Shown here piece by piece: positions 1 through 13,852 of a stretch of DNA of 13,852 bases. The translations under genes and the position numbers were made by a program. Below the pieces are notes generated by a model. It was not told where the DNA came from. It saw only the letters and a program-made list of their open reading frames with translations, and searched no databases. The stretch lies in assembly GCA_000004985.1 (NCBI GenBank), contig GG738956.1. One strand, 5' to 3'. Each line of letters opens with the position of its first letter. The first letter of the stretch is position 1. Source of the stretch: Naegleria gruberi. Lineage: Eukaryota.

Positions 1-16
1 TATATTCAATACTTAC

Positions 17-103
17 ACATTTGTTCACATCAATATTAGGTTGTTCTAATAATAATTTAACAATTTCAATGTGACCATTTTGACAAGCAGTATACAAAGG
101 TGT
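17..103 (-). CDS. Ankyrin-repeat-encoding exon-like segment, copy 1. Minus-strand translation is TPLYTACQNGHIEIVKLLLEQPNIDVNKC. This is the most diverged copy.
   Basis: The reverse complement reads in frame for 29 codons with no stop, in DNA where TAA/TAG are frequent. It fits the ankyrin consensus (TPLH-A---GH-E-VK-LLE----DVN). On the minus strand it is bounded 5' by AAATAG (acceptor-like) and 3' by GTAAGTATT (donor-like). It differs from the consensus copy by I>T, E>Q and one synonymous Leu change. Confidence 0.4.
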
Positions 104-264
104 CTATTTCATTTAATATCATAATTATATTTAATACTTACTTCCTAATTAATTTAATATCATCAATATATTTAATACTTACTTCCTAATTAATTTAATA
201 TCATAAATATATTCAATACTTACTTCCTAATTAATTTAATATCACAAATATATTCAATACTTAC
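104..264. repeat. Minisatellite block 1: four 38-nt units separated by 3-nt spacers (ttc, ttc, ttc on the plus strand).
   Basis: 161 nt = 4*38 + 3*3. The first unit (104-141), adjacent to the exon-like segment, is a distinct variant: CTATTTCATTTAATATCATAATTATATTTAATACTTAC. Its reverse complement ends in AAATAG. Confidence 0.9.
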
Positions 265-351
265 ACATTTGTTCACATCAATGTTAGGTTGTTCTAATAA
301 TAATTTAACAATTTCAATGTAACCATTTTCACAAGCAATATATAAAGGTGT
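265..351 (-). CDS. Ankyrin-repeat-encoding exon-like segment, copy 2. Minus-strand translation is TPLYIACENGYIEIVKLLLEQPNIDVNKC.
   Basis: Same 87-nt unit. It has two substitutions versus consensus: His>Tyr at the conserved GH position, and a synonymous Asn change. The frame is intact, with the same flanking AG| and |GTAAGT motifs. Confidence 0.4.
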
Positions 352-594
352 CTATTTCATTTAATATCATAATTATATTTAATACTTACTTCCTAATTAA
401 TTTAATATCATCAATATATTCAATACTTACTTCCTAATTAATTTAATATCATAAATAAATTTAATACTTACTTCCTAATTAATTTAATATCATCAATATA
501 TTCAATACTTACTTCCTAATTAATTTAATATCATAAATATATTTAATACTTACTTCCTAATTAATTTAATATCATAAATATATTCAATACTTAC
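352..594. repeat. Minisatellite block 2: six 38-nt units with five 3-nt spacers.
   Basis: 243 nt = 6*38 + 5*3. The same variant unit sits immediately next to the 87-nt segment. The generic units alternate between a CATCAATATATT type and a CATAAATA[T/A]ATT type. Confidence 0.9.
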
Positions 595-681
595 ACATTT
601 GTTCACATCAATATTAGGTTGTTCTAATAACAATTTAACAATTTCAATGTGACCATTTTCACAAGCAATATATAAAGGTGT
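595..681 (-). CDS. Ankyrin-repeat-encoding exon-like segment, copy 3. Minus-strand translation is TPLYIACENGHIEIVKLLLEQPNIDVNKC.
   Basis: Same 87-nt unit with one synonymous change (tta>ttg Leu). Frame intact. Confidence 0.4.
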
Positions 682-1006
682 CTATTTCATTTAATATCAT
701 AATTATATTTAATACTTACTTCCTAATTAATTTAATATCATCAATATATTCAATACTTACCAACTAATTAATTTAATATCATAAATAAATTTAATACTTA
801 CTTTCTAATTAATTTAATATCATCAATATATTCAATACTTACAAACTAATTTATTTAATATCATAAATAAATTTAATACTTACAAACTAATTTATTTAAT
901 ATCATCAATATATTTAATACTTACTTCCTAATTAATTTAATATCATAAATATATTTAATACTTACTTTCTAATTAATTTAATATCATCAATATATTCAAT
1001 ACTTAC
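682..1006. repeat. Minisatellite block 3: eight 38-nt units with seven 3-nt spacers (ttc, caa, ttt, aaa, aaa, ttc, ttt).
   Basis: 325 nt = 8*38 + 7*3. It contains a second unit subfamily, AAACTAATTTATTT versus TTCCTAATTAATTT. Confidence 0.9.
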
Positions 1007-1093
1007 ACATTTGTTCACATCAATATTAGGTTGTTCTAATAATAATTTAACAATTTCAATGTGACCATTTTCACAAGCAATATATAAAGGTGT
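1007..1093 (-). CDS. Ankyrin-repeat-encoding exon-like segment, copy 4 (consensus sequence).
   Basis: Identical to copy 5. 29 in-frame codons on the minus strand, flanked by AAATAG| and |GTAAGTATT. Confidence 0.4.
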
Positions 1094-1377
1094 CTATTTC
1101 ATTTAATATCATAATTATATTTAATACTTACTTTCTAATTAATTTAATATCATCAATATATTCAATACTTACCAACTAATTAATTTAATATCATAAATAA
1201 ATTTAATACTTACAAACTAATTTATTTAATATCATCAATATATTTAATACTTACAAACTAATTTATTTAATATCATAAATATATTTAATACTTACAAACT
1301 AATTTATTTAATATCATAAATATATTTAATACTTACTTCCTAATTAATTTAATATCACAAATATATTCAATACTTAC
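1094..1377. repeat. Minisatellite block 4: seven 38-nt units with six 3-nt spacers.
   Basis: 284 nt = 7*38 + 6*3. Same variant proximal unit and the same two subfamilies as block 3. Confidence 0.9.
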
Positions 1378-1464
1378 ACATTTGTTCACATCAATATTAG
1401 GTTGTTCTAATAATAATTTAACAATTTCAATGTGACCATTTTCACAAGCAATATATAAAGGTGT
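1378..1464 (-). CDS. Ankyrin-repeat-encoding exon-like segment, copy 5 (consensus sequence).
   Basis: Identical to copy 4. It is followed on the plus strand by a variant 38-nt unit (1465-1502, ending ACCTAC, reverse complement GTAGGT) and then the N gap. Confidence 0.4.
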
Positions 1465-1502
1465 CTATTTCATTTAATATCATAAATATAGTTAATACCT
1501 AC

Positions 1503-4500
1503 NNNNNNNNNNNNNNNNNNNNNNNNNNNNNNNNNNNNNNNNNNNNNNNNNNNNNNNNNNNNNNNNNNNNNNNNNNNNNNNNNNNNNNNNNNNNNNNNNN
1601 NNNNNNNNNNNNNNNNNNNNNNNNNNNNNNNNNNNNNNNNNNNNNNNNNNNNNNNNNNNNNNNNNNNNNNNNNNNNNNNNNNNNNNNNNNNNNNNNNNNN
1701 NNNNNNNNNNNNNNNNNNNNNNNNNNNNNNNNNNNNNNNNNNNNNNNNNNNNNNNNNNNNNNNNNNNNNNNNNNNNNNNNNNNNNNNNNNNNNNNNNNNN
1801 NNNNNNNNNNNNNNNNNNNNNNNNNNNNNNNNNNNNNNNNNNNNNNNNNNNNNNNNNNNNNNNNNNNNNNNNNNNNNNNNNNNNNNNNNNNNNNNNNNNN
1901 NNNNNNNNNNNNNNNNNNNNNNNNNNNNNNNNNNNNNNNNNNNNNNNNNNNNNNNNNNNNNNNNNNNNNNNNNNNNNNNNNNNNNNNNNNNNNNNNNNNN
2001 NNNNNNNNNNNNNNNNNNNNNNNNNNNNNNNNNNNNNNNNNNNNNNNNNNNNNNNNNNNNNNNNNNNNNNNNNNNNNNNNNNNNNNNNNNNNNNNNNNNN
2101 NNNNNNNNNNNNNNNNNNNNNNNNNNNNNNNNNNNNNNNNNNNNNNNNNNNNNNNNNNNNNNNNNNNNNNNNNNNNNNNNNNNNNNNNNNNNNNNNNNNN
2201 NNNNNNNNNNNNNNNNNNNNNNNNNNNNNNNNNNNNNNNNNNNNNNNNNNNNNNNNNNNNNNNNNNNNNNNNNNNNNNNNNNNNNNNNNNNNNNNNNNNN
2301 NNNNNNNNNNNNNNNNNNNNNNNNNNNNNNNNNNNNNNNNNNNNNNNNNNNNNNNNNNNNNNNNNNNNNNNNNNNNNNNNNNNNNNNNNNNNNNNNNNNN
2401 NNNNNNNNNNNNNNNNNNNNNNNNNNNNNNNNNNNNNNNNNNNNNNNNNNNNNNNNNNNNNNNNNNNNNNNNNNNNNNNNNNNNNNNNNNNNNNNNNNNN
2501 NNNNNNNNNNNNNNNNNNNNNNNNNNNNNNNNNNNNNNNNNNNNNNNNNNNNNNNNNNNNNNNNNNNNNNNNNNNNNNNNNNNNNNNNNNNNNNNNNNNN
2601 NNNNNNNNNNNNNNNNNNNNNNNNNNNNNNNNNNNNNNNNNNNNNNNNNNNNNNNNNNNNNNNNNNNNNNNNNNNNNNNNNNNNNNNNNNNNNNNNNNNN
2701 NNNNNNNNNNNNNNNNNNNNNNNNNNNNNNNNNNNNNNNNNNNNNNNNNNNNNNNNNNNNNNNNNNNNNNNNNNNNNNNNNNNNNNNNNNNNNNNNNNNN
2801 NNNNNNNNNNNNNNNNNNNNNNNNNNNNNNNNNNNNNNNNNNNNNNNNNNNNNNNNNNNNNNNNNNNNNNNNNNNNNNNNNNNNNNNNNNNNNNNNNNNN
2901 NNNNNNNNNNNNNNNNNNNNNNNNNNNNNNNNNNNNNNNNNNNNNNNNNNNNNNNNNNNNNNNNNNNNNNNNNNNNNNNNNNNNNNNNNNNNNNNNNNNN
3001 NNNNNNNNNNNNNNNNNNNNNNNNNNNNNNNNNNNNNNNNNNNNNNNNNNNNNNNNNNNNNNNNNNNNNNNNNNNNNNNNNNNNNNNNNNNNNNNNNNNN
3101 NNNNNNNNNNNNNNNNNNNNNNNNNNNNNNNNNNNNNNNNNNNNNNNNNNNNNNNNNNNNNNNNNNNNNNNNNNNNNNNNNNNNNNNNNNNNNNNNNNNN
3201 NNNNNNNNNNNNNNNNNNNNNNNNNNNNNNNNNNNNNNNNNNNNNNNNNNNNNNNNNNNNNNNNNNNNNNNNNNNNNNNNNNNNNNNNNNNNNNNNNNNN
3301 NNNNNNNNNNNNNNNNNNNNNNNNNNNNNNNNNNNNNNNNNNNNNNNNNNNNNNNNNNNNNNNNNNNNNNNNNNNNNNNNNNNNNNNNNNNNNNNNNNNN
3401 NNNNNNNNNNNNNNNNNNNNNNNNNNNNNNNNNNNNNNNNNNNNNNNNNNNNNNNNNNNNNNNNNNNNNNNNNNNNNNNNNNNNNNNNNNNNNNNNNNNN
3501 NNNNNNNNNNNNNNNNNNNNNNNNNNNNNNNNNNNNNNNNNNNNNNNNNNNNNNNNNNNNNNNNNNNNNNNNNNNNNNNNNNNNNNNNNNNNNNNNNNNN
3601 NNNNNNNNNNNNNNNNNNNNNNNNNNNNNNNNNNNNNNNNNNNNNNNNNNNNNNNNNNNNNNNNNNNNNNNNNNNNNNNNNNNNNNNNNNNNNNNNNNNN
3701 NNNNNNNNNNNNNNNNNNNNNNNNNNNNNNNNNNNNNNNNNNNNNNNNNNNNNNNNNNNNNNNNNNNNNNNNNNNNNNNNNNNNNNNNNNNNNNNNNNNN
3801 NNNNNNNNNNNNNNNNNNNNNNNNNNNNNNNNNNNNNNNNNNNNNNNNNNNNNNNNNNNNNNNNNNNNNNNNNNNNNNNNNNNNNNNNNNNNNNNNNNNN
3901 NNNNNNNNNNNNNNNNNNNNNNNNNNNNNNNNNNNNNNNNNNNNNNNNNNNNNNNNNNNNNNNNNNNNNNNNNNNNNNNNNNNNNNNNNNNNNNNNNNNN
4001 NNNNNNNNNNNNNNNNNNNNNNNNNNNNNNNNNNNNNNNNNNNNNNNNNNNNNNNNNNNNNNNNNNNNNNNNNNNNNNNNNNNNNNNNNNNNNNNNNNNN
4101 NNNNNNNNNNNNNNNNNNNNNNNNNNNNNNNNNNNNNNNNNNNNNNNNNNNNNNNNNNNNNNNNNNNNNNNNNNNNNNNNNNNNNNNNNNNNNNNNNNNN
4201 NNNNNNNNNNNNNNNNNNNNNNNNNNNNNNNNNNNNNNNNNNNNNNNNNNNNNNNNNNNNNNNNNNNNNNNNNNNNNNNNNNNNNNNNNNNNNNNNNNNN
4301 NNNNNNNNNNNNNNNNNNNNNNNNNNNNNNNNNNNNNNNNNNNNNNNNNNNNNNNNNNNNNNNNNNNNNNNNNNNNNNNNNNNNNNNNNNNNNNNNNNNN
4401 NNNNNNNNNNNNNNNNNNNNNNNNNNNNNNNNNNNNNNNNNNNNNNNNNNNNNNNNNNNNNNNNNNNNNNNNNNNNNNNNNNNNNNNNNNNNNNNNNNNN

Positions 4501-6147
4501 NNNNNNNNNNNNNNNNNNNNNNNNNNNNNNNNNNNNNNNNNNNNNNNNNNNNNNNNNNNNNNNNNNNNNNNNNNNNNNNNNNNNNNNNNNNNNNNNNNNN
4601 NNNNNNNNNNNNNNNNNNNNNNNNNNNNNNNNNNNNNNNNNNNNNNNNNNNNNNNNNNNNNNNNNNNNNNNNNNNNNNNNNNNNNNNNNNNNNNNNNNNN
4701 NNNNNNNNNNNNNNNNNNNNNNNNNNNNNNNNNNNNNNNNNNNNNNNNNNNNNNNNNNNNNNNNNNNNNNNNNNNNNNNNNNNNNNNNNNNNNNNNNNNN
4801 NNNNNNNNNNNNNNNNNNNNNNNNNNNNNNNNNNNNNNNNNNNNNNNNNNNNNNNNNNNNNNNNNNNNNNNNNNNNNNNNNNNNNNNNNNNNNNNNNNNN
4901 NNNNNNNNNNNNNNNNNNNNNNNNNNNNNNNNNNNNNNNNNNNNNNNNNNNNNNNNNNNNNNNNNNNNNNNNNNNNNNNNNNNNNNNNNNNNNNNNNNNN
5001 NNNNNNNNNNNNNNNNNNNNNNNNNNNNNNNNNNNNNNNNNNNNNNNNNNNNNNNNNNNNNNNNNNNNNNNNNNNNNNNNNNNNNNNNNNNNNNNNNNNN
5101 NNNNNNNNNNNNNNNNNNNNNNNNNNNNNNNNNNNNNNNNNNNNNNNNNNNNNNNNNNNNNNNNNNNNNNNNNNNNNNNNNNNNNNNNNNNNNNNNNNNN
5201 NNNNNNNNNNNNNNNNNNNNNNNNNNNNNNNNNNNNNNNNNNNNNNNNNNNNNNNNNNNNNNNNNNNNNNNNNNNNNNNNNNNNNNNNNNNNNNNNNNNN
5301 NNNNNNNNNNNNNNNNNNNNNNNNNNNNNNNNNNNNNNNNNNNNNNNNNNNNNNNNNNNNNNNNNNNNNNNNNNNNNNNNNNNNNNNNNNNNNNNNNNNN
5401 NNNNNNNNNNNNNNNNNNNNNNNNNNNNNNNNNNNNNNNNNNNNNNNNNNNNNNNNNNNNNNNNNNNNNNNNNNNNNNNNNNNNNNNNNNNNNNNNNNNN
5501 NNNNNNNNNNNNNNNNNNNNNNNNNNNNNNNNNNNNNNNNNNNNNNNNNNNNNNNNNNNNNNNNNNNNNNNNNNNNNNNNNNNNNNNNNNNNNNNNNNNN
5601 NNNNNNNNNNNNNNNNNNNNNNNNNNNNNNNNNNNNNNNNNNNNNNNNNNNNNNNNNNNNNNNNNNNNNNNNNNNNNNNNNNNNNNNNNNNNNNNNNNNN
5701 NNNNNNNNNNNNNNNNNNNNNNNNNNNNNNNNNNNNNNNNNNNNNNNNNNNNNNNNNNNNNNNNNNNNNNNNNNNNNNNNNNNNNNNNNNNNNNNNNNNN
5801 NNNNNNNNNNNNNNNNNNNNNNNNNNNNNNNNNNNNNNNNNNNNNNNNNNNNNNNNNNNNNNNNNNNNNNNNNNNNNNNNNNNNNNNNNNNNNNNNNNNN
5901 NNNNNNNNNNNNNNNNNNNNNNNNNNNNNNNNNNNNNNNNNNNNNNNNNNNNNNNNNNNNNNNNNNNNNNNNNNNNNNNNNNNNNNNNNNNNNNNNNNNN
6001 NNNNNNNNNNNNNNNNNNNNNNNNNNNNNNNNNNNNNNNNNNNNNNNNNNNNNNNNNNNNNNNNNNNNNNNNNNNNNNNNNNNNNNNNNNNNNNNNNNNN
6101 NNNNNNNNNNNNNNNNNNNNNNNNNNNNNNNNNNNNNNNNNNNNNNN
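1503..6147. other. Run of 4645 N: assembly gap or masked sequence with no information.
   Basis: Contiguous n characters. The ORF-track entries 1461..6155(+) and 1470..6164(-), and the X portion of 1492..6660(-), are artefacts of translating N. Confidence 0.99.
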
Positions 6148-6660
6148 TTCTTTAACACTTTCATTCTTGGTGTTTGTATTATTCAAAGATTCAAACAACT
6201 TTCTCTTCTTTTCATTTTCCTCAAAATTTAATTTTAATTGATAATATCTCTTCCAGAATAATATAAATGATATTTGTGAAGGGACAATGTTAGTATGAAT
6301 TTCCTTTAATTTTGGATCATTTTCCAACAATTTACTAATTTCATCAGTTTTAGAATCAATATCAATTTGAATAGTATTCAAATCATTTTCATCACTTAAA
6401 TAAATTGGTGTTTTGTATGATTGTTCATTGTACAGAATATTTTCAATACTAATATTTGATGATGATTGATCCGAATCTCCCAATTCTGAAGCCAATTCAT
6501 TAATCTTTACAATACCAACAGAAACGGCATCAGCAAATTCATCAATATCCTTCTTGTACAACTCGATCAGTTGGTTGCCATTTTGTGTAACCGTTTGTGA
6601 AACTTGCTCAGCCAGCGATGAAAAGTAATCAAACATTTTTTTTAGAAAATTTTTTCTCAT
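6148..6660 (-). CDS. BSD domain-containing protein, BSDC1-like, N-terminal 171 codons. Partial: it continues into the N gap.
   Basis: The minus-strand ORF starts at ATG 6660 (a second in-frame ATG is at 6636) and runs 513 nt with no stop. The translation contains the BSD-domain signature region ISKLLENDPKLKEIHTNIVPSQISFILFWKRYYQLK, with the conserved FW-RY core at residues 135-139. The F/W codons were verified at 6253-6258. The N-terminal segment LIELYKKDIDEFADAV parallels the vertebrate BSDC1 motif EALEFMKRDLTEFTQVV as I recall it. Codon usage is AT-rich at the third position. Confidence 0.8.
6181..6348 (-). other. BSD domain coding region within the BSDC1-like CDS, approximately residues 105-160.
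   Basis: The conserved FW pair and surrounding helix-forming residues (EISKLLEN ... FWKRYYQLKLNFEE) map here. Domain boundaries are approximate. Confidence 0.6.
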
Positions 6661-6820
6661 AAATTATCTCTTTAAGGTTTTTTTAAAATCTGATTGCAAA
6701 ATTTCCATTTATTGGAAATGCTAGTCTTGTAAATTGTGTTATTCATTTCCTAGTCTAGTAATGAATTCCAGTTTGTGTTCAACATAAAAACTATTGAATT
6801 TGGAATGTCTGTAGCAGACT

Positions 6821-6831
6821 TGGCCGAGTGG
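6821..6831 (+). promoter_or_regulatory. Pol III internal promoter A box (TGGCCGAGTGG).
   Basis: Matches the TRGCNNAGTGG consensus at tRNA positions 8-18. Confidence 0.8.
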
Positions 6832-6872
6832 TTAAGGCGACAGACTTGAAATCTGTTGGGGAAACCTTCGTA

Positions 6873-6883
6873 GGTTCGAATCC
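6873..6883 (+). promoter_or_regulatory. Pol III internal promoter B box (GGTTCGAATCC).
   Basis: Exact match to the GGTTCGANTCC consensus in the T arm. Confidence 0.85.
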
Positions 6884-6901
6884 TGCAGTCTGCGAGTGAA
6901 C

Positions 6902-6905
6902 TTTT
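6902..6905 (+). terminator. Pol III terminator T-run (TTTT), 8 nt downstream of the tRNA 3' end.
   Basis: A run of four T on the coding strand immediately after the tRNA. This is typical eukaryotic pol III termination and supports a nuclear eukaryotic origin. Confidence 0.7.
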
Positions 6906-8608
6906 AAATATTACAGCTTTTGGGATCCATTTTTAGGGATGGAACTTTGGATTTATCTACAATTTACGGTTAGGGATTTTGGATATACTCTCGCTCCAAT
7001 CAAAGAATGGTTGATAAGAATTATTTTACAACTCAAACAAAAAACCTGTTACCGTTTTGGTGATAAATTAAAATTTCACTCTAAATTGTTCGGTGATTCA
7101 AACATGTTACAAACAATGGGATTATTTATTATGTTTTTGTAATAATATATACACAATTTATTTTCCTTCAGTCTGGTAGAAATGTAATTAGTTTAGAACA
7201 AAATAACCTGCAATTTGAATCTGTATGCAGTGGAATTAAGTTAGATTCTTTGGAGACAAGGCAAATATTGAACCATTAATTATTACTACTTCAGTTAAAG
7301 AGAAGCAGAAAAAGGAGAAAACTAAAGCCATCAAAAGAAAGAATAAGGAAACTCCTTAAAAACAGACTTGGTTGTTTTTTTCTTTCAAGGAGTTTTTGAA
7401 ATTTTTGAAATTTCAACCAAACGATCCCAACATCTATGAGCTGCAAATTAATACACGGGAAAATTTTGTGTGAAATTAATGGATTCAACTAATTCTTCCG
7501 TTCCATTAATAATACTATTTATCAATAAATTATATTTAAAGGAATCAATTTGATTTTCTTGATGAAATAAAATGTGCATTTTTTTTATTTAAAATAAAAG
7601 TTTTTTAATACATTATTTTTGATGTTACAGTTTATTCATTATATGATTTGAGGTTGAAATAATCATATTGGACCTCAAGACACCTTGGAGATGTGATTCT
7701 TTGAAACTATTTTCATTTTATCAAGAATATCCAATTTAACCTTTTGAGCTTGTTAGAATATTTTCCAAAAAGAGGCATTTGATAAATTATTGCCGTATTG
7801 TGTTCAAATCAAGAAGGTGGATTGGTTTATTTTTAAATGAAAACATGAATACCAAAAATTTATTTGTTTTTCTTGGTCACTGTATATAGAAATATGAAAA
7901 GAGAGAATTTAAAGACTTCATTAATAAATCGTCTTCTGAGAGTGAGTAGGGATTATTTATAGGAGGAATTTAATAAGAGTAATTCATTCTCCTTTTTCTC
8001 CCAAAACAAATTCTCCTTTTTCTGGTACTTATATTCTGGATTTGGTATTCTTTTTGAAAAAATACGTTCCCCAAAGTGTTACTGAATTTACATACGAACA
8101 CATGGTAGAACCAATTGATCAATTTTTGATTTGGTAATAAATTATGCGTGAACAATAATTTTCAAAGGCTTGTTAAAAAATTTGAAATAATTTGATGAAG
8201 TTGTGTATTTGATTGGATTCTTTGATCTTACATTCTTGAGGTGATGAAGTATTGATGGAAAAATCAAATGCTGAAGGGAAGTTTTTGTGGCGGCTACAGA
8301 TTGTATTTTTTCAAGTATTGGTGTTCATCAGAGTGTGTGTGGACTTGTTGTAATTTATAATTTTATCAAATCACAAATCCCTTTCCAAATCAAATCATTC
8401 GATTCTATTTTGGAAGTGAGAGAATTTCTGAATCAATGAGTTTGTATGGTGAAAAATAAACTGATGTTGAAGAAACAAGGTTTGTTAAAAAAATATTTTG
8501 AATTGAATTTTGAACATGAGTATTGCGTTTTGGTCTCATTAGATTCCTTAATTAATTTCCGATGGAGTGGTTATCTTACATTGTTGTGGTGATGAAATAT
8601 CGGTATTA

Positions 8609-11600
8609 NNNNNNNNNNNNNNNNNNNNNNNNNNNNNNNNNNNNNNNNNNNNNNNNNNNNNNNNNNNNNNNNNNNNNNNNNNNNNNNNNNNNNNNNNNNN
8701 NNNNNNNNNNNNNNNNNNNNNNNNNNNNNNNNNNNNNNNNNNNNNNNNNNNNNNNNNNNNNNNNNNNNNNNNNNNNNNNNNNNNNNNNNNNNNNNNNNNN
8801 NNNNNNNNNNNNNNNNNNNNNNNNNNNNNNNNNNNNNNNNNNNNNNNNNNNNNNNNNNNNNNNNNNNNNNNNNNNNNNNNNNNNNNNNNNNNNNNNNNNN
8901 NNNNNNNNNNNNNNNNNNNNNNNNNNNNNNNNNNNNNNNNNNNNNNNNNNNNNNNNNNNNNNNNNNNNNNNNNNNNNNNNNNNNNNNNNNNNNNNNNNNN
9001 NNNNNNNNNNNNNNNNNNNNNNNNNNNNNNNNNNNNNNNNNNNNNNNNNNNNNNNNNNNNNNNNNNNNNNNNNNNNNNNNNNNNNNNNNNNNNNNNNNNN
9101 NNNNNNNNNNNNNNNNNNNNNNNNNNNNNNNNNNNNNNNNNNNNNNNNNNNNNNNNNNNNNNNNNNNNNNNNNNNNNNNNNNNNNNNNNNNNNNNNNNNN
9201 NNNNNNNNNNNNNNNNNNNNNNNNNNNNNNNNNNNNNNNNNNNNNNNNNNNNNNNNNNNNNNNNNNNNNNNNNNNNNNNNNNNNNNNNNNNNNNNNNNNN
9301 NNNNNNNNNNNNNNNNNNNNNNNNNNNNNNNNNNNNNNNNNNNNNNNNNNNNNNNNNNNNNNNNNNNNNNNNNNNNNNNNNNNNNNNNNNNNNNNNNNNN
9401 NNNNNNNNNNNNNNNNNNNNNNNNNNNNNNNNNNNNNNNNNNNNNNNNNNNNNNNNNNNNNNNNNNNNNNNNNNNNNNNNNNNNNNNNNNNNNNNNNNNN
9501 NNNNNNNNNNNNNNNNNNNNNNNNNNNNNNNNNNNNNNNNNNNNNNNNNNNNNNNNNNNNNNNNNNNNNNNNNNNNNNNNNNNNNNNNNNNNNNNNNNNN
9601 NNNNNNNNNNNNNNNNNNNNNNNNNNNNNNNNNNNNNNNNNNNNNNNNNNNNNNNNNNNNNNNNNNNNNNNNNNNNNNNNNNNNNNNNNNNNNNNNNNNN
9701 NNNNNNNNNNNNNNNNNNNNNNNNNNNNNNNNNNNNNNNNNNNNNNNNNNNNNNNNNNNNNNNNNNNNNNNNNNNNNNNNNNNNNNNNNNNNNNNNNNNN
9801 NNNNNNNNNNNNNNNNNNNNNNNNNNNNNNNNNNNNNNNNNNNNNNNNNNNNNNNNNNNNNNNNNNNNNNNNNNNNNNNNNNNNNNNNNNNNNNNNNNNN
9901 NNNNNNNNNNNNNNNNNNNNNNNNNNNNNNNNNNNNNNNNNNNNNNNNNNNNNNNNNNNNNNNNNNNNNNNNNNNNNNNNNNNNNNNNNNNNNNNNNNNN
10001 NNNNNNNNNNNNNNNNNNNNNNNNNNNNNNNNNNNNNNNNNNNNNNNNNNNNNNNNNNNNNNNNNNNNNNNNNNNNNNNNNNNNNNNNNNNNNNNNNNNN
10101 NNNNNNNNNNNNNNNNNNNNNNNNNNNNNNNNNNNNNNNNNNNNNNNNNNNNNNNNNNNNNNNNNNNNNNNNNNNNNNNNNNNNNNNNNNNNNNNNNNNN
10201 NNNNNNNNNNNNNNNNNNNNNNNNNNNNNNNNNNNNNNNNNNNNNNNNNNNNNNNNNNNNNNNNNNNNNNNNNNNNNNNNNNNNNNNNNNNNNNNNNNNN
10301 NNNNNNNNNNNNNNNNNNNNNNNNNNNNNNNNNNNNNNNNNNNNNNNNNNNNNNNNNNNNNNNNNNNNNNNNNNNNNNNNNNNNNNNNNNNNNNNNNNNN
10401 NNNNNNNNNNNNNNNNNNNNNNNNNNNNNNNNNNNNNNNNNNNNNNNNNNNNNNNNNNNNNNNNNNNNNNNNNNNNNNNNNNNNNNNNNNNNNNNNNNNN
10501 NNNNNNNNNNNNNNNNNNNNNNNNNNNNNNNNNNNNNNNNNNNNNNNNNNNNNNNNNNNNNNNNNNNNNNNNNNNNNNNNNNNNNNNNNNNNNNNNNNNN
10601 NNNNNNNNNNNNNNNNNNNNNNNNNNNNNNNNNNNNNNNNNNNNNNNNNNNNNNNNNNNNNNNNNNNNNNNNNNNNNNNNNNNNNNNNNNNNNNNNNNNN
10701 NNNNNNNNNNNNNNNNNNNNNNNNNNNNNNNNNNNNNNNNNNNNNNNNNNNNNNNNNNNNNNNNNNNNNNNNNNNNNNNNNNNNNNNNNNNNNNNNNNNN
10801 NNNNNNNNNNNNNNNNNNNNNNNNNNNNNNNNNNNNNNNNNNNNNNNNNNNNNNNNNNNNNNNNNNNNNNNNNNNNNNNNNNNNNNNNNNNNNNNNNNNN
10901 NNNNNNNNNNNNNNNNNNNNNNNNNNNNNNNNNNNNNNNNNNNNNNNNNNNNNNNNNNNNNNNNNNNNNNNNNNNNNNNNNNNNNNNNNNNNNNNNNNNN
11001 NNNNNNNNNNNNNNNNNNNNNNNNNNNNNNNNNNNNNNNNNNNNNNNNNNNNNNNNNNNNNNNNNNNNNNNNNNNNNNNNNNNNNNNNNNNNNNNNNNNN
11101 NNNNNNNNNNNNNNNNNNNNNNNNNNNNNNNNNNNNNNNNNNNNNNNNNNNNNNNNNNNNNNNNNNNNNNNNNNNNNNNNNNNNNNNNNNNNNNNNNNNN
11201 NNNNNNNNNNNNNNNNNNNNNNNNNNNNNNNNNNNNNNNNNNNNNNNNNNNNNNNNNNNNNNNNNNNNNNNNNNNNNNNNNNNNNNNNNNNNNNNNNNNN
11301 NNNNNNNNNNNNNNNNNNNNNNNNNNNNNNNNNNNNNNNNNNNNNNNNNNNNNNNNNNNNNNNNNNNNNNNNNNNNNNNNNNNNNNNNNNNNNNNNNNNN
11401 NNNNNNNNNNNNNNNNNNNNNNNNNNNNNNNNNNNNNNNNNNNNNNNNNNNNNNNNNNNNNNNNNNNNNNNNNNNNNNNNNNNNNNNNNNNNNNNNNNNN
11501 NNNNNNNNNNNNNNNNNNNNNNNNNNNNNNNNNNNNNNNNNNNNNNNNNNNNNNNNNNNNNNNNNNNNNNNNNNNNNNNNNNNNNNNNNNNNNNNNNNNN

Positions 11601-13773
11601 NNNNNNNNNNNNNNNNNNNNNNNNNNNNNNNNNNNNNNNNNNNNNNNNNNNNNNNNNNNNNNNNNNNNNNNNNNNNNNNNNNNNNNNNNNNNNNNNNNNN
11701 NNNNNNNNNNNNNNNNNNNNNNNNNNNNNNNNNNNNNNNNNNNNNNNNNNNNNNNNNNNNNNNNNNNNNNNNNNNNNNNNNNNNNNNNNNNNNNNNNNNN
11801 NNNNNNNNNNNNNNNNNNNNNNNNNNNNNNNNNNNNNNNNNNNNNNNNNNNNNNNNNNNNNNNNNNNNNNNNNNNNNNNNNNNNNNNNNNNNNNNNNNNN
11901 NNNNNNNNNNNNNNNNNNNNNNNNNNNNNNNNNNNNNNNNNNNNNNNNNNNNNNNNNNNNNNNNNNNNNNNNNNNNNNNNNNNNNNNNNNNNNNNNNNNN
12001 NNNNNNNNNNNNNNNNNNNNNNNNNNNNNNNNNNNNNNNNNNNNNNNNNNNNNNNNNNNNNNNNNNNNNNNNNNNNNNNNNNNNNNNNNNNNNNNNNNNN
12101 NNNNNNNNNNNNNNNNNNNNNNNNNNNNNNNNNNNNNNNNNNNNNNNNNNNNNNNNNNNNNNNNNNNNNNNNNNNNNNNNNNNNNNNNNNNNNNNNNNNN
12201 NNNNNNNNNNNNNNNNNNNNNNNNNNNNNNNNNNNNNNNNNNNNNNNNNNNNNNNNNNNNNNNNNNNNNNNNNNNNNNNNNNNNNNNNNNNNNNNNNNNN
12301 NNNNNNNNNNNNNNNNNNNNNNNNNNNNNNNNNNNNNNNNNNNNNNNNNNNNNNNNNNNNNNNNNNNNNNNNNNNNNNNNNNNNNNNNNNNNNNNNNNNN
12401 NNNNNNNNNNNNNNNNNNNNNNNNNNNNNNNNNNNNNNNNNNNNNNNNNNNNNNNNNNNNNNNNNNNNNNNNNNNNNNNNNNNNNNNNNNNNNNNNNNNN
12501 NNNNNNNNNNNNNNNNNNNNNNNNNNNNNNNNNNNNNNNNNNNNNNNNNNNNNNNNNNNNNNNNNNNNNNNNNNNNNNNNNNNNNNNNNNNNNNNNNNNN
12601 NNNNNNNNNNNNNNNNNNNNNNNNNNNNNNNNNNNNNNNNNNNNNNNNNNNNNNNNNNNNNNNNNNNNNNNNNNNNNNNNNNNNNNNNNNNNNNNNNNNN
12701 NNNNNNNNNNNNNNNNNNNNNNNNNNNNNNNNNNNNNNNNNNNNNNNNNNNNNNNNNNNNNNNNNNNNNNNNNNNNNNNNNNNNNNNNNNNNNNNNNNNN
12801 NNNNNNNNNNNNNNNNNNNNNNNNNNNNNNNNNNNNNNNNNNNNNNNNNNNNNNNNNNNNNNNNNNNNNNNNNNNNNNNNNNNNNNNNNNNNNNNNNNNN
12901 NNNNNNNNNNNNNNNNNNNNNNNNNNNNNNNNNNNNNNNNNNNNNNNNNNNNNNNNNNNNNNNNNNNNNNNNNNNNNNNNNNNNNNNNNNNNNNNNNNNN
13001 NNNNNNNNNNNNNNNNNNNNNNNNNNNNNNNNNNNNNNNNNNNNNNNNNNNNNNNNNNNNNNNNNNNNNNNNNNNNNNNNNNNNNNNNNNNNNNNNNNNN
13101 NNNNNNNNNNNNNNNNNNNNNNNNNNNNNNNNNNNNNNNNNNNNNNNNNNNNNNNNNNNNNNNNNNNNNNNNNNNNNNNNNNNNNNNNNNNNNNNNNNNN
13201 NNNNNNNNNNNNNNNNNNNNNNNNNNNNNNNNNNNNNNNNNNNNNNNNNNNNNNNNNNNNNNNNNNNNNNNNNNNNNNNNNNNNNNNNNNNNNNNNNNNN
13301 NNNNNNNNNNNNNNNNNNNNNNNNNNNNNNNNNNNNNNNNNNNNNNNNNNNNNNNNNNNNNNNNNNNNNNNNNNNNNNNNNNNNNNNNNNNNNNNNNNNN
13401 NNNNNNNNNNNNNNNNNNNNNNNNNNNNNNNNNNNNNNNNNNNNNNNNNNNNNNNNNNNNNNNNNNNNNNNNNNNNNNNNNNNNNNNNNNNNNNNNNNNN
13501 NNNNNNNNNNNNNNNNNNNNNNNNNNNNNNNNNNNNNNNNNNNNNNNNNNNNNNNNNNNNNNNNNNNNNNNNNNNNNNNNNNNNNNNNNNNNNNNNNNNN
13601 NNNNNNNNNNNNNNNNNNNNNNNNNNNNNNNNNNNNNNNNNNNNNNNNNNNNNNNNNNNNNNNNNNNNNNNNNNNNNNNNNNNNNNNNNNNNNNNNNNNN
13701 NNNNNNNNNNNNNNNNNNNNNNNNNNNNNNNNNNNNNNNNNNNNNNNNNNNNNNNNNNNNNNNNNNNNNNNNN
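8609..13773. other. Run of 5165 N: assembly gap or masked sequence with no information.
   Basis: Contiguous n characters. The four ORF-track entries spanning 8548-13840 are artefacts. Confidence 0.99.
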
Positions 13774-13852
13774 CAACAATACACACATGATGATTGTAAA
13801 TCCACTGAATGTTATCTACACATGTGTTTTCACCTTCCAAATTACAACCTTA

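What the first reader, a model, noticed from the sequence alone, without database searches (positions are those of the whole stretch)
104..1377. Intronic minisatellite in which every 41-nt unit carries a consensus 5' splice donor
On the minus strand each unit reads GTAAGTATTGAATATATTTATGATATTAAATTAATTAG + NNN. So every block presents 4-8 tandem copies of AG..GTAAGTAT spaced 41 nt apart, and 41 is not a multiple of 3. If the blocks are introns, only the first donor preserves the frame. Use of any downstream donor would add 41*k nt and shift the frame unless k is a multiple of 3. The result is either a built-in source of alternative or aberrant splicing, or evidence that the 5' end of the intron seeded the minisatellite.
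Basis: seen in the sequence. Interest (0 to 1): 0.6.

Follow-up and report, generated by a model that had tools for sequence, protein, structure and literature searches.

The report
Tandem mini-introns between ankyrin-repeat exons
In the amoeba Naegleria gruberi, the gaps between near-identical 87-base ankyrin-repeat exons are filled by 4-8 head-to-tail copies of a 38-base intron-like module plus one codon; this is probably a tolerated by-product of repeat instability, and existing RNA-seq data could show how it is spliced.

Summary
On the minus strand of 1-1502 there are 26 copies of GTAAGTAT, where 0.18 are expected by chance.

The interval 104-1377 is not one array. It holds four 41-nt arrays of 4, 6, 8 and 7 units, separated by 87-nt blocks. 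Each block is exactly 29 codons, TPLYIACENGHIEIVKLLLEQPNIDVNKC, a short-loop ankyrin repeat with phase-0 boundaries. The organism is Naegleria gruberi.

Each unit is a complete GT...AG module of 38 nt followed by a 3-nt spacer (GAA, AAA, TTT or TTG). The arrays fill the introns completely and measure 41k-3 nt.

In that case just 1 of 10-36 donor/acceptor pairs per block keeps the frame open. If every unit is removed in some intron, all 8-128 combinations per block stay in frame.

Intronless homologues have a 29-residue period. I therefore favour removal of each block as one intron (confidence 0.5). Unit-by-unit splicing with 3-nt microexons (0.2) and a dead, untranscribed array (0.2) remain open. 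No RNA evidence was reachable.

The closest precedent is the human F7 IVS7 minisatellite. I class this as a new variant of a known kind, of moderate interest.

The parts
1378..1464 (-). 87-nt exon, 29 codons TPLYIACENGHIEIVKLLLEQPNIDVNKC (short-loop ankyrin repeat), phase 0 at both ends
   Evidence: Ank profile positions 2-29 of 33
1094..1377 (-). Putative intron made only of 7 tandem units: six of 38 nt GT..AG plus a 3-nt spacer, and one terminal 38-nt unit. Spacers read GAA TTT TTT TTT TTG AAA.
1007..1093 (-). 87-nt ankyrin exon, identical to 1378-1464
682..1006 (-). Putative intron of 8 tandem units (325 nt). Spacers read AAA GAA TTT TTT AAA TTG GAA.
595..681 (-). 87-nt ankyrin exon with one synonymous difference from the consensus
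352..594 (-). Putative intron of 6 tandem units (243 nt). All five spacers are GAA.
265..351 (-). 87-nt ankyrin exon (H11Y plus one synonymous difference)
104..264 (-). Putative intron of 4 tandem units (161 nt). All three spacers are GAA.
17..103 (-). 87-nt ankyrin exon (I5T, E8Q, one synonymous difference)
1..16 (-). First 16 nt (GTAAGTATTGAATATA) of the next array. The gene runs off the window.
1465..1502 (-). Terminal-type 38-nt unit (GTAGGT...AAATGAAATAG) that differs at 3 of 38 positions. Everything 5' of it is masked by N.

Best explanation
The stretch 1-1502 (minus strand) is part of a Naegleria gruberi gene that appears in no predicted protein I could find. The gene is built from tandem modules. 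Each module has one 87-nt exon encoding one 29-residue ankyrin repeat that lacks the usual beta-hairpin loop, followed by a phase-0 intron.

Each intron consists only of 4-8 head-to-tail copies of a complete 38-nt GT...AG mini-intron, separated by 3-nt spacers.

Inferred origin: an ancestral intron of about 38 nt (the terminal variant ...AAATGAAATAG is kept at the 3' end of every block) was duplicated together with 3 nt by slippage or unequal exchange. Unit number then drifted independently in each module, while the exon-plus-intron modules were themselves amplified and homogenised.

Inferred splicing: each block is most likely removed as one intron, from the first GT to the last AG (161-325 nt). 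This joins the 29-residue repeats directly, as in the intronless homologues. The inner donors and acceptors are bystanders. The 3-nt AG-to-GT spacing means that piecewise removal would add only whole sense codons. That is probably why the arrays could expand without killing the gene. The minisatellite itself has no dedicated function.
For: Shown:
- Organism: the neighbouring BSD gene is 100% identical to an N. gruberi predicted protein.
- Exon and intron geometry, with GT and AG at every boundary.
- Ankyrin identity: Pfam Ank 8e-46 and Ank_2 4e-53; E=2e-53 to ankyrin proteins.
- The closest homologues P0005, P0018 and P0020 (55-66% identity) are uninterrupted ORFs with an exact 29-residue period.
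- P0005 is predicted to form helix pairs every 29 residues, mean pLDDT 84. The linker-free product is therefore a natural fold.
- Block lengths of 161-325 nt bracket the reported N. gruberi mean intron length of 203 bp (PMC8296547).
- Two annotated Naegleria introns begin GTAAGTAC and GTAAGTAT.
- The unit types form mosaics with shared sub-runs between blocks, as expected from unequal exchange.
- A human precedent exists in which reiterated identical donors stay silent and the most upstream one is used: the F7 IVS7 minisatellite (PMC1557585).
- All complete tilings are in frame.
Against: - No RNA evidence of any kind was reachable.
- No predicted protein reproduces these exons. The best identity is 66%. 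This comes from libraries of 5.8 billion proteins (only in the length windows 145-254 and 426-761 aa) and 1.84 billion representatives at any length.
- Inner donors are identical to the first donor in the 8 intronic bases. Their exonic context is no worse (GAA, AAA, TTT or TTG before GT, against TGT). Inner acceptors (TTAATTAG|G) are no weaker than the terminal one (GAAATAG|A). Sequence alone therefore does not favour the outer pair.
- 38 nt is within the range allowed for Naegleria gene models: a minimum of 30 bp was used for N. fowleri.
- The three spacer columns are all variable while GTAAGTAT and AG never vary. P=0.005 for the spacer columns, post hoc. This hints that the inner AG and GT matter.
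Confidence: 0.5

Rival explanations
1. Unit-wise splicing. Each 38-nt module is excised as its own mini-intron, alone or in pairs. The 3-nt spacers survive as microexons. The inter-repeat loops then become EEE, EEEEE, KEFFKLE and EFFFLK, or shorter subsets, which restores a repeat length of 32-36 residues. Alternative pairing could diversify the loops.
For: - The AG-to-GT spacing is exactly 3 nt in 21 of 21 internal units, and no spacer is a stop codon.
- All 8-128 tilings per block are open, giving up to 90 distinct linkers in one block.
- The spacer is the most variable part of the unit, while the splice signals are invariant.
- The arrays leave no unique intron sequence, so the unit looks like a self-sufficient intron.
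- A 30-bp minimum intron length was judged appropriate for Naegleria gene models.
- With linkers, the Pfam multi-repeat models Ank_4, Ank_5 and Ank_KRIT1 score slightly higher, while Ank_2 scores lower.
- From general knowledge of tandem-donor competition experiments: a donor close to the acceptor is often preferred.
Against: - The nearest homologues have no linker at all.
- The linkers lack the Gly and Asp typical of ankyrin hairpins.
- There are only four spacer alleles, so the absence of stop codons is weak evidence.
- A spacer length divisible by 3 has a prior chance of about 1 in 3.
- Spliceosomes on sites 41 nt apart would have to act one after another, and 3-nt exons are rare.
- The two real Naegleria introns I could recover are 158 and 242 nt.
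Confidence: 0.2
2. Dead array. This would be a recently amplified satellite derived from one ankyrin exon plus its intron. It would be neither transcribed nor under selection. The intact frames and splice signals would reflect only how young the copies are.
For: - The exons are 96.5-100% identical, so the open frames are not independent evidence.
- No predicted protein contains them.
- No ankyrin array lies next to the BSD gene in N. fowleri or N. lovaniensis.
- Exon GC is 25%, below the neighbouring BSD coding sequence at 28%.
- The synonymous to non-synonymous ratio of 3:3 does not differ significantly from neutral expectation (my calculation, P about 0.17).
Against: - The one diverged intron unit (1465-1502, 3 of 38 changes) adjoins an exon with 0 of 87 changes. 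This suggests the exons are better preserved than the introns.
- Array boundaries coincide to the base with the codon boundaries in all blocks.
- Half of the exon differences are synonymous.
Confidence: 0.2
3. Inner donors compete with the first donor while the last acceptor is used. The locus then regularly produces frameshifted transcripts with premature stop codons, either as noise or as a way to lower expression through nonsense-mediated decay.
For: - With a single excision, only 1 of 10-36 donor/acceptor pairs is open. Retained units bring a TAA after 14 codons.
- The inner donors are full-strength.
Against: - This reading ignores the inner acceptors, which can rescue the frame.
- There is no RNA evidence.
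Confidence: 0.07
4. Assembly artefact. The unit counts, or the whole nested structure, result from mis-assembly of a repetitive region.
For: - The modules are 248-412 nt long and 94-96% alike. That makes them hard to assemble.
- Large parts of the window cannot be read.
Against: - The N runs are masks, not gaps. The C-terminal 81 residues of the annotated BSD protein must be encoded inside one of them.
- The 41-nt period and the exon/array junctions recur with distinct unit mosaics in each block, which a collapse would not produce.
- Mis-assembly could change unit counts but not the architecture.
Confidence: 0.03

Closest known systems
Human F7 intron 7 (IVS7) 37-bp VNTR minisatellite with reiterated 5' pseudo-splice sites (Borensztajn et al. 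2006, PMC1557585)
   Same: An intronic minisatellite starts at the exon/intron boundary, so the authentic donor is followed by several identical donors. The unit length (37 nt there, 41 nt here) is not a multiple of 3.
   Different: - In F7 the repeat is only the 5' part of a longer intron, and its units are not described as carrying acceptors.
- Here the repeat is the entire intron, and every unit also ends in AG 3 nt before the next GT.
- Here the structure recurs in at least four consecutive introns of one gene.
- Use of the upstream site is shown by experiment for F7 and is only inferred here.
Intron gain by tandem genomic duplication of a segment containing AGGT (Hellsten et al. 2011, PMC3265369; potato RdRp, PMC4974935; Drosophila cases, PMC2891723)
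   Same: A tandem duplication creates extra donor/acceptor pairs. The result is viable if the duplicated material is spliced out.
   Different: In those cases exon sequence is duplicated and one new intron is born. Here an existing complete intron plus 3 nt was reiterated up to 8 times inside the same intron position.
Recursive-splicing ratchet points (AG|GTAAGT), as described in Drosophila long introns (from my own knowledge)
   Same: An acceptor is followed immediately by a strong donor inside an intron, which allows stepwise removal.
   Different: Ratchet points have zero spacing, so nothing is left behind. Here the spacing is 3 nt in all 21 cases, so stepwise removal would leave a codon. 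The introns here are short, not tens of kilobases.
EBV IR1 (BamHI-W) repeats encoding EBNA-LP (bioRxiv 10.1101/176099, listed)
   Same: A tandem array in which every repeat unit carries exons with their own donors and acceptors. The protein is built from one exon set per unit.
   Different: The EBV unit is about 3 kb and its introns are not themselves minisatellites. This resembles only the higher-order exon-plus-intron level seen here.
Short-loop (29-residue) ankyrin-repeat proteins from AT-rich, gene-dense metagenome contigs (P0005, P0018, P0020)
   Same: They share a 29-residue period, the junction ...DVN-x-C/T-PLY..., and 55-66% identity.
   Different: They are uninterrupted ORFs of about 210-236 aa with distinct N- and C-terminal regions. 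They have no introns, and their source organism is unknown.

Membership tests
U2-type GT-AG spliceosomal intron | GT at the 5' end with extended complementarity to the U1 5' end (GUAAGUAU) | tested here: met
   25 of 26 units start with GTAAGTAT and one starts with GTAGGTAT. The U1 pairing rule comes from general knowledge; N. gruberi U1 was not examined.
U2-type GT-AG spliceosomal intron | AG at the 3' end, directly followed by exon sequence | tested here: met
   All 26 units end in TAG. The terminal units abut the ACA (Thr) codon.
U2-type GT-AG spliceosomal intron | A usable branch point at a workable distance from both splice sites | tested here: inconclusive
   Only loose yUnAy-like candidates exist (TTGAT, TTTAT, TTAAAT) in AT-rich sequence. 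There is no Naegleria branch-point model. One N. fowleri intron ends CTAAATTTAG.
U2-type GT-AG spliceosomal intron | Removal restores an open frame that encodes a recognisable protein | tested here: met
   The joined exons give five ankyrin repeats, Pfam Ank 8e-46. The junctions are in frame.
U2-type GT-AG spliceosomal intron | Actually excised from RNA | not testable with these tools
   The N. gruberi genome and RNA-seq are not in the reachable collections. RNA-seq exists as PRJEB23822.
Ankyrin repeat (Pfam PF00023 / clan Ank) | Profile match above the curated cut-off | tested here: met
   Ank 151.8 bits against a cut-off of 21.1; Ank_2 178.3 against 27.3.
Ankyrin repeat (Pfam PF00023 / clan Ank) | Canonical 33-residue period including the beta-hairpin loop | tested here: not met
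   The period is 29 residues. Each exon covers profile positions 2-29 of 33. The same short period occurs in P0005, P0018 and P0020.
Ankyrin repeat (Pfam PF00023 / clan Ank) | Stacked helix-turn-helix pairs | tested here: inconclusive
   Shown only for the homologue P0005: AlphaFold2 mean pLDDT 84, helix pairs every 29 residues.
Minisatellite / VNTR | Head-to-tail copies of a 10-100 bp unit | tested here: met
   41-nt period, 21 full and 5 terminal units.
Minisatellite / VNTR | Variable copy number | tested here: inconclusive
   Copy number differs between paralogous blocks (4, 6, 8, 7), each with a mosaic of unit types. Variation between strains could not be tested.
F7-IVS7-type intronic minisatellite with reiterated donors | The first repeat element starts at the exon/intron boundary, so identical donors follow the authentic one | tested here: met
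   The arrays begin exactly at the first GT after codon 29. The definition is from PMC1557585.
F7-IVS7-type intronic minisatellite with reiterated donors | Only the most upstream donor is used | not testable with these tools
   This needs RNA data.
Recursive-splice ratchet point | AG immediately juxtaposed to GTAAGT (zero-length exon) | tested here: not met
   The spacing is 3 nt in 21 of 21 cases.
Introner-like mobile intron | Near-identical copies dispersed in unrelated genes | not tested
   Only local tandem copies were seen. An exact scan of metagenome contigs found 0 matches.

The most novel reading that the evidence does not exclude
Each 41-nt unit is a working mini-intron of 38 nt plus a 3-nt microexon. 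Naegleria would then splice chains of up to eight 38-nt introns. Alternative pairing of donors and acceptors would generate ankyrin proteins whose inter-repeat loops vary in length (0-7 residues) and sequence. There are up to 90 possible linkers for one block and thousands of combinations per gene. Under this reading, tandem duplication of 'intron + codon' would be a one-step way to gain introns and loop residues together.
Probability: 0.15. Interest if true: 0.8.

Novelty: new variant of a known kind. Interest (0 to 1): 0.45.

Why it matters
Reiterated, equally strong splice sites are natural experiments on how the spliceosome pairs donors with acceptors. The only well-studied case, F7 IVS7, is mammalian and repeats donors only.

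Here a deep-branching protist with short introns presents four consecutive introns made solely of complete donor-acceptor modules at 41-nt spacing. A single RNA-seq alignment would show whether Naegleria follows a rule of first donor, nearest partner or minimum length.

The locus also shows how an intron can multiply in place without breaking a gene, because the spacer is one codon. This bears on models of intron gain by tandem duplication. If the units prove inert, it is simply an unusual intronic minisatellite in a recently amplified ankyrin gene.

Tried and rejected
- Reaching the N. gruberi genome or transcripts. The contig index holds neither the BSD protein nor another N. gruberi protein. 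An exact scan of metagenome contigs for the acceptor-spacer-donor junction found nothing.
- Synteny. The BSD loci of N. fowleri and N. lovaniensis (L001, L002) contain no ankyrin array and no 41-nt unit. The region 6640-8608 shows no tblastx similarity to them.
- Looking for an annotated or transcript-derived protein that would show the real exon junctions. None was found; the best identity was 66%, or 64% among representatives. Caveat: the search for homologous proteins returned only proteins of about 1.0-1.75 times the query length, so lengths 255-425 aa and above 761 aa were covered only by the representative search.
- Structure prediction of the two candidate products. Only the homologue P0005 could be folded.
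- Separating the linker-free and linker-containing products with Pfam. Both score as ankyrin and the differences are small and mixed.
- A structured-RNA reading of the array. Rejected: the minimum free energy is no better than shuffled sequence, z=+1.49.
- Statistical tests of constraint. The invariance of the GT and AG signals is not significant (P=0.08). Spacer hypervariability gives P=0.005, but this is post hoc and rests on few independent events.
- Giant-virus origin of the ankyrin exons. Only generic 35-42% matches turned up in giant-virus MAG contigs, so I did not pursue this.
- Literature. I found no description of introns built from tandem 'intron + codon' units. The Fritz-Laylin 2010 genome paper is not held in the library.

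Full report
**What can be read.** Only 1-1502, 6148-8608 and 13774-13852 of the window are bases. The rest is N. The N runs are masks, not assembly gaps. The ORF at 6148-6639 (minus strand) is 100% identical to the first 163 residues of a 244-residue Naegleria gruberi predicted protein with a BSD domain. The remaining 81 residues, which are conserved in N. fowleri and N. lovaniensis, must be encoded inside the N run. The organism is therefore N. gruberi. A tRNA-Ser(UGA) lies at 6814-6894.

**The observation.**
- Tandem Repeats Finder reports a 41-nt period over 104-1377 with 30.9 copies but only 75% matches. Higher-order periods of 248, 330, 371 and 412 nt also appear.
- Parsing the minus strand explains both. 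Five 87-nt blocks (1378-1464, 1007-1093, 595-681, 265-351, 17-103) alternate with four arrays of 7, 8, 6 and 4 units (284, 325, 243 and 161 nt, that is 41k-3).
- An internal unit is 38 nt, GTAAGTATT[G/A]AAT[A/T]TATT[T/G][A/G]TGATATTAAAT[T/A]AATTAG, followed by a 3-nt spacer.
- The last unit of every block is a fixed 38-nt variant (...AATTATGATATTAAATGAAATAG) with no spacer.
- GTAAGTAT occurs 26 times, all on the minus strand, against 0.18 expected. AG-NNN-GTAAGTAT occurs 21 times against 0 expected.
The exception is that 104-1377 is four arrays plus three exons, not one array.

**What the 87-nt blocks are.**
- Each is exactly 29 codons with no stop: TPLYIACENGHIEIVKLLLEQPNIDVNKC.
- Joined together they match Pfam Ank (8e-46, five stretches covering profile positions 2-29 of 33) and Ank_2 (4e-53). 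They hit ankyrin proteins at E=2e-53.
- The blocks are thus ankyrin repeats lacking about four residues of the hairpin loop.
- GT follows codon 29 directly and AG precedes codon 1 directly, so the arrays occupy phase-0 intron positions.
- The five exons differ at six sites, three synonymous and three not.

- Every unit carries a full-strength donor. By general knowledge, GUAAGUAU is the perfect intronic complement of the U1 5' end.
- Every unit also carries an acceptor-like TAG that lies exactly 3 nt before the next donor, in 21 of 21 cases.
- The spacers are GAA (11), TTT (5), AAA (3) and TTG (2). None is a stop codon.
- I enumerated the outcomes. With a single excision, only the pair first donor/last acceptor, out of 10, 21, 36 and 28 pairs, gives an open in-frame junction. 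A retained unit brings a TAA after 14 codons.
- If every unit is removed in some intron, all 8, 32, 128 and 64 tilings are open and in frame. They add between 0 and k-1 codons. The full linkers would be EEE, EEEEE, KEFFKLE and EFFFLK.
- The arrays contain no unique sequence, so the repeat unit is the whole intron and not its 5' end.

**Which splicing pattern is more likely?**

*Evidence for whole-block removal:*
- The closest homologues P0005, P0018 and P0020 (55-66% identity) are uninterrupted ORFs. Their repeats follow each other at exactly 29 residues with junctions such as NLC|TPLY.
- AlphaFold2 gives P0005 helix pairs every 29 residues at mean pLDDT 84.
- The block lengths of 161-325 nt bracket the mean N. 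gruberi intron length of 203 bp (PMC8296547).
- The two annotated Naegleria introns I could reconstruct are 158 and 242 nt and begin GTAAGTAC and GTAAGTAT.
- In the only well-studied analogue, the human F7 IVS7 37-bp minisatellite, the reiterated donors are functional but silent and the most upstream one is used (PMC1557585).

*Evidence for unit-wise removal:*
- The inner sites are as good as the outer ones.
- A 30-bp minimum intron length was considered appropriate for Naegleria gene models.
- The spacer is exactly one codon.
- The eight variable columns of the unit include all three spacer columns (P=0.005, post hoc). None of the ten GTAAGTAT and AG positions varies (P=0.08).

*What did not help:* Pfam cannot separate the two products. 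I commit to whole-block removal at 0.5, with unit-wise splicing at 0.2.

**Is it a live gene?** This is not settled.
- No protein in the 5.8-billion library (length windows 145-254 and 426-761 aa) reproduces these exons. Nor does any among 1.84 billion representatives at any length. The best identities are 66% and 64%. The array is therefore unannotated, and no transcript-derived ORF was found.
- The syntenic BSD loci of N. fowleri and N. lovaniensis have no ankyrin array.
- The copies are so alike that their open frames are not independent evidence.
- One hint of exon constraint exists. The diverged unit at 1465-1502 has 3 of 38 changes, while the adjoining exon has 0 of 87.
- I give the dead-array rival 0.2.

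**Origin (inferred).** The terminal unit is identical in four blocks and is never followed by a spacer. Internal unit types form mosaics with sub-runs shared between blocks, for example ...TTG unit, then G-type unit, then terminal unit, in both 682-1006 and 1094-1377. This fits an ancestral intron of about 38 nt reiterated together with 3 nt by slippage or unequal exchange. That process would be nested within the amplification and homogenisation of exon-plus-intron modules. The array RNA has no more structure than shuffled sequence (z=+1.49).

**Comparison with known systems.**
- It works like the F7 IVS7 minisatellite: identical donors reiterated from the exon boundary.
- It relates to intron gain by tandem duplication (PMC3265369, PMC4974935, PMC2891723).
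- It differs from both. The unit is a complete intron plus one codon, the repeat is the entire intron, and the structure recurs in consecutive introns.
- It is not a recursive-splice ratchet point, because the spacing is 3 nt and not 0.
- Literature searches found no description of such an arrangement.

**Verdict.** This is a new variant of a known kind, the intronic minisatellite with reiterated splice sites. Interest is moderate (0.45), mainly because one alignment of existing RNA-seq data (PRJEB23822) would decide between an inert repeat and chains of 38-nt introns with 3-nt microexons.

Noticed in passing
window 1503-6147 and 8609-13773: The two long N runs are masks rather than assembly gaps. 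The annotated N. gruberi BSD protein (244 aa) matches 6148-6639 at 100% over residues 1-163. Its conserved C-terminal 81 residues must lie inside the first N run. The 5' part of the ankyrin gene is therefore hidden, not missing.
   Followed up: partly
window 6148-6639 (-) and 6814-6894 (+): There is a BSD-domain gene (Pfam PF03909, 1e-12) and a tRNA-Ser(UGA) gene (Rfam 64 bits). In N. fowleri and N. lovaniensis the BSD gene is followed by a 1,769-1,908-aa gene on the opposite strand, not by an ankyrin array. Local synteny is not kept.
   Followed up: partly
window 6895-8608: This stretch of about 1.7 kb has 28% GC, no ORF longer than 67 aa, no Rfam family and no tblastx similarity to the N. 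fowleri or N. lovaniensis BSD loci. That is unusually empty for a genome reported as 58% coding.
   Followed up: partly
L003 1-1256, L004 1-1088 (metagenome contigs): The nearest relatives of the ankyrin exons (P0005 family, 29-residue period) are encoded as back-to-back paralogues only 27 nt apart, on contigs of 24% GC. This gene-dense layout is more like a giant virus or a compact genome than a Naegleria-type gene. A scan of viral contigs gave only generic 35-42% ankyrin matches in giant-virus MAGs.
   Followed up: partly
L001 11038-16922 (-), L002 10913-16464 (-): The single intron of the orthologous large gene next to BSD is 158 nt in N. fowleri and 242 nt in N. lovaniensis. In both it is full of short internal repeats (AATACATTCC...; CATCCATCCATACATA..., CACACACA). 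Repeat growth inside introns may be common in Naegleria.
   Followed up: no
window 1465-1502 (-): The terminal-type unit next to the mask has a weakened donor (GTAGGT) and three changes in 38 nt. The exon it precedes is identical to the consensus. This may mark the edge of the homogenised part of the array.
   Followed up: no
window 352-594 (-) and the other arrays: Units with G at position 10 (usually also G at position 19) tend to alternate with units that have A at position 10. The alternation is perfect in the 6-unit block, which suggests a partial 82-nt super-period. The variant TAAATTAG co-occurs with spacer TTT in 5 of 5 cases.
   Followed up: no
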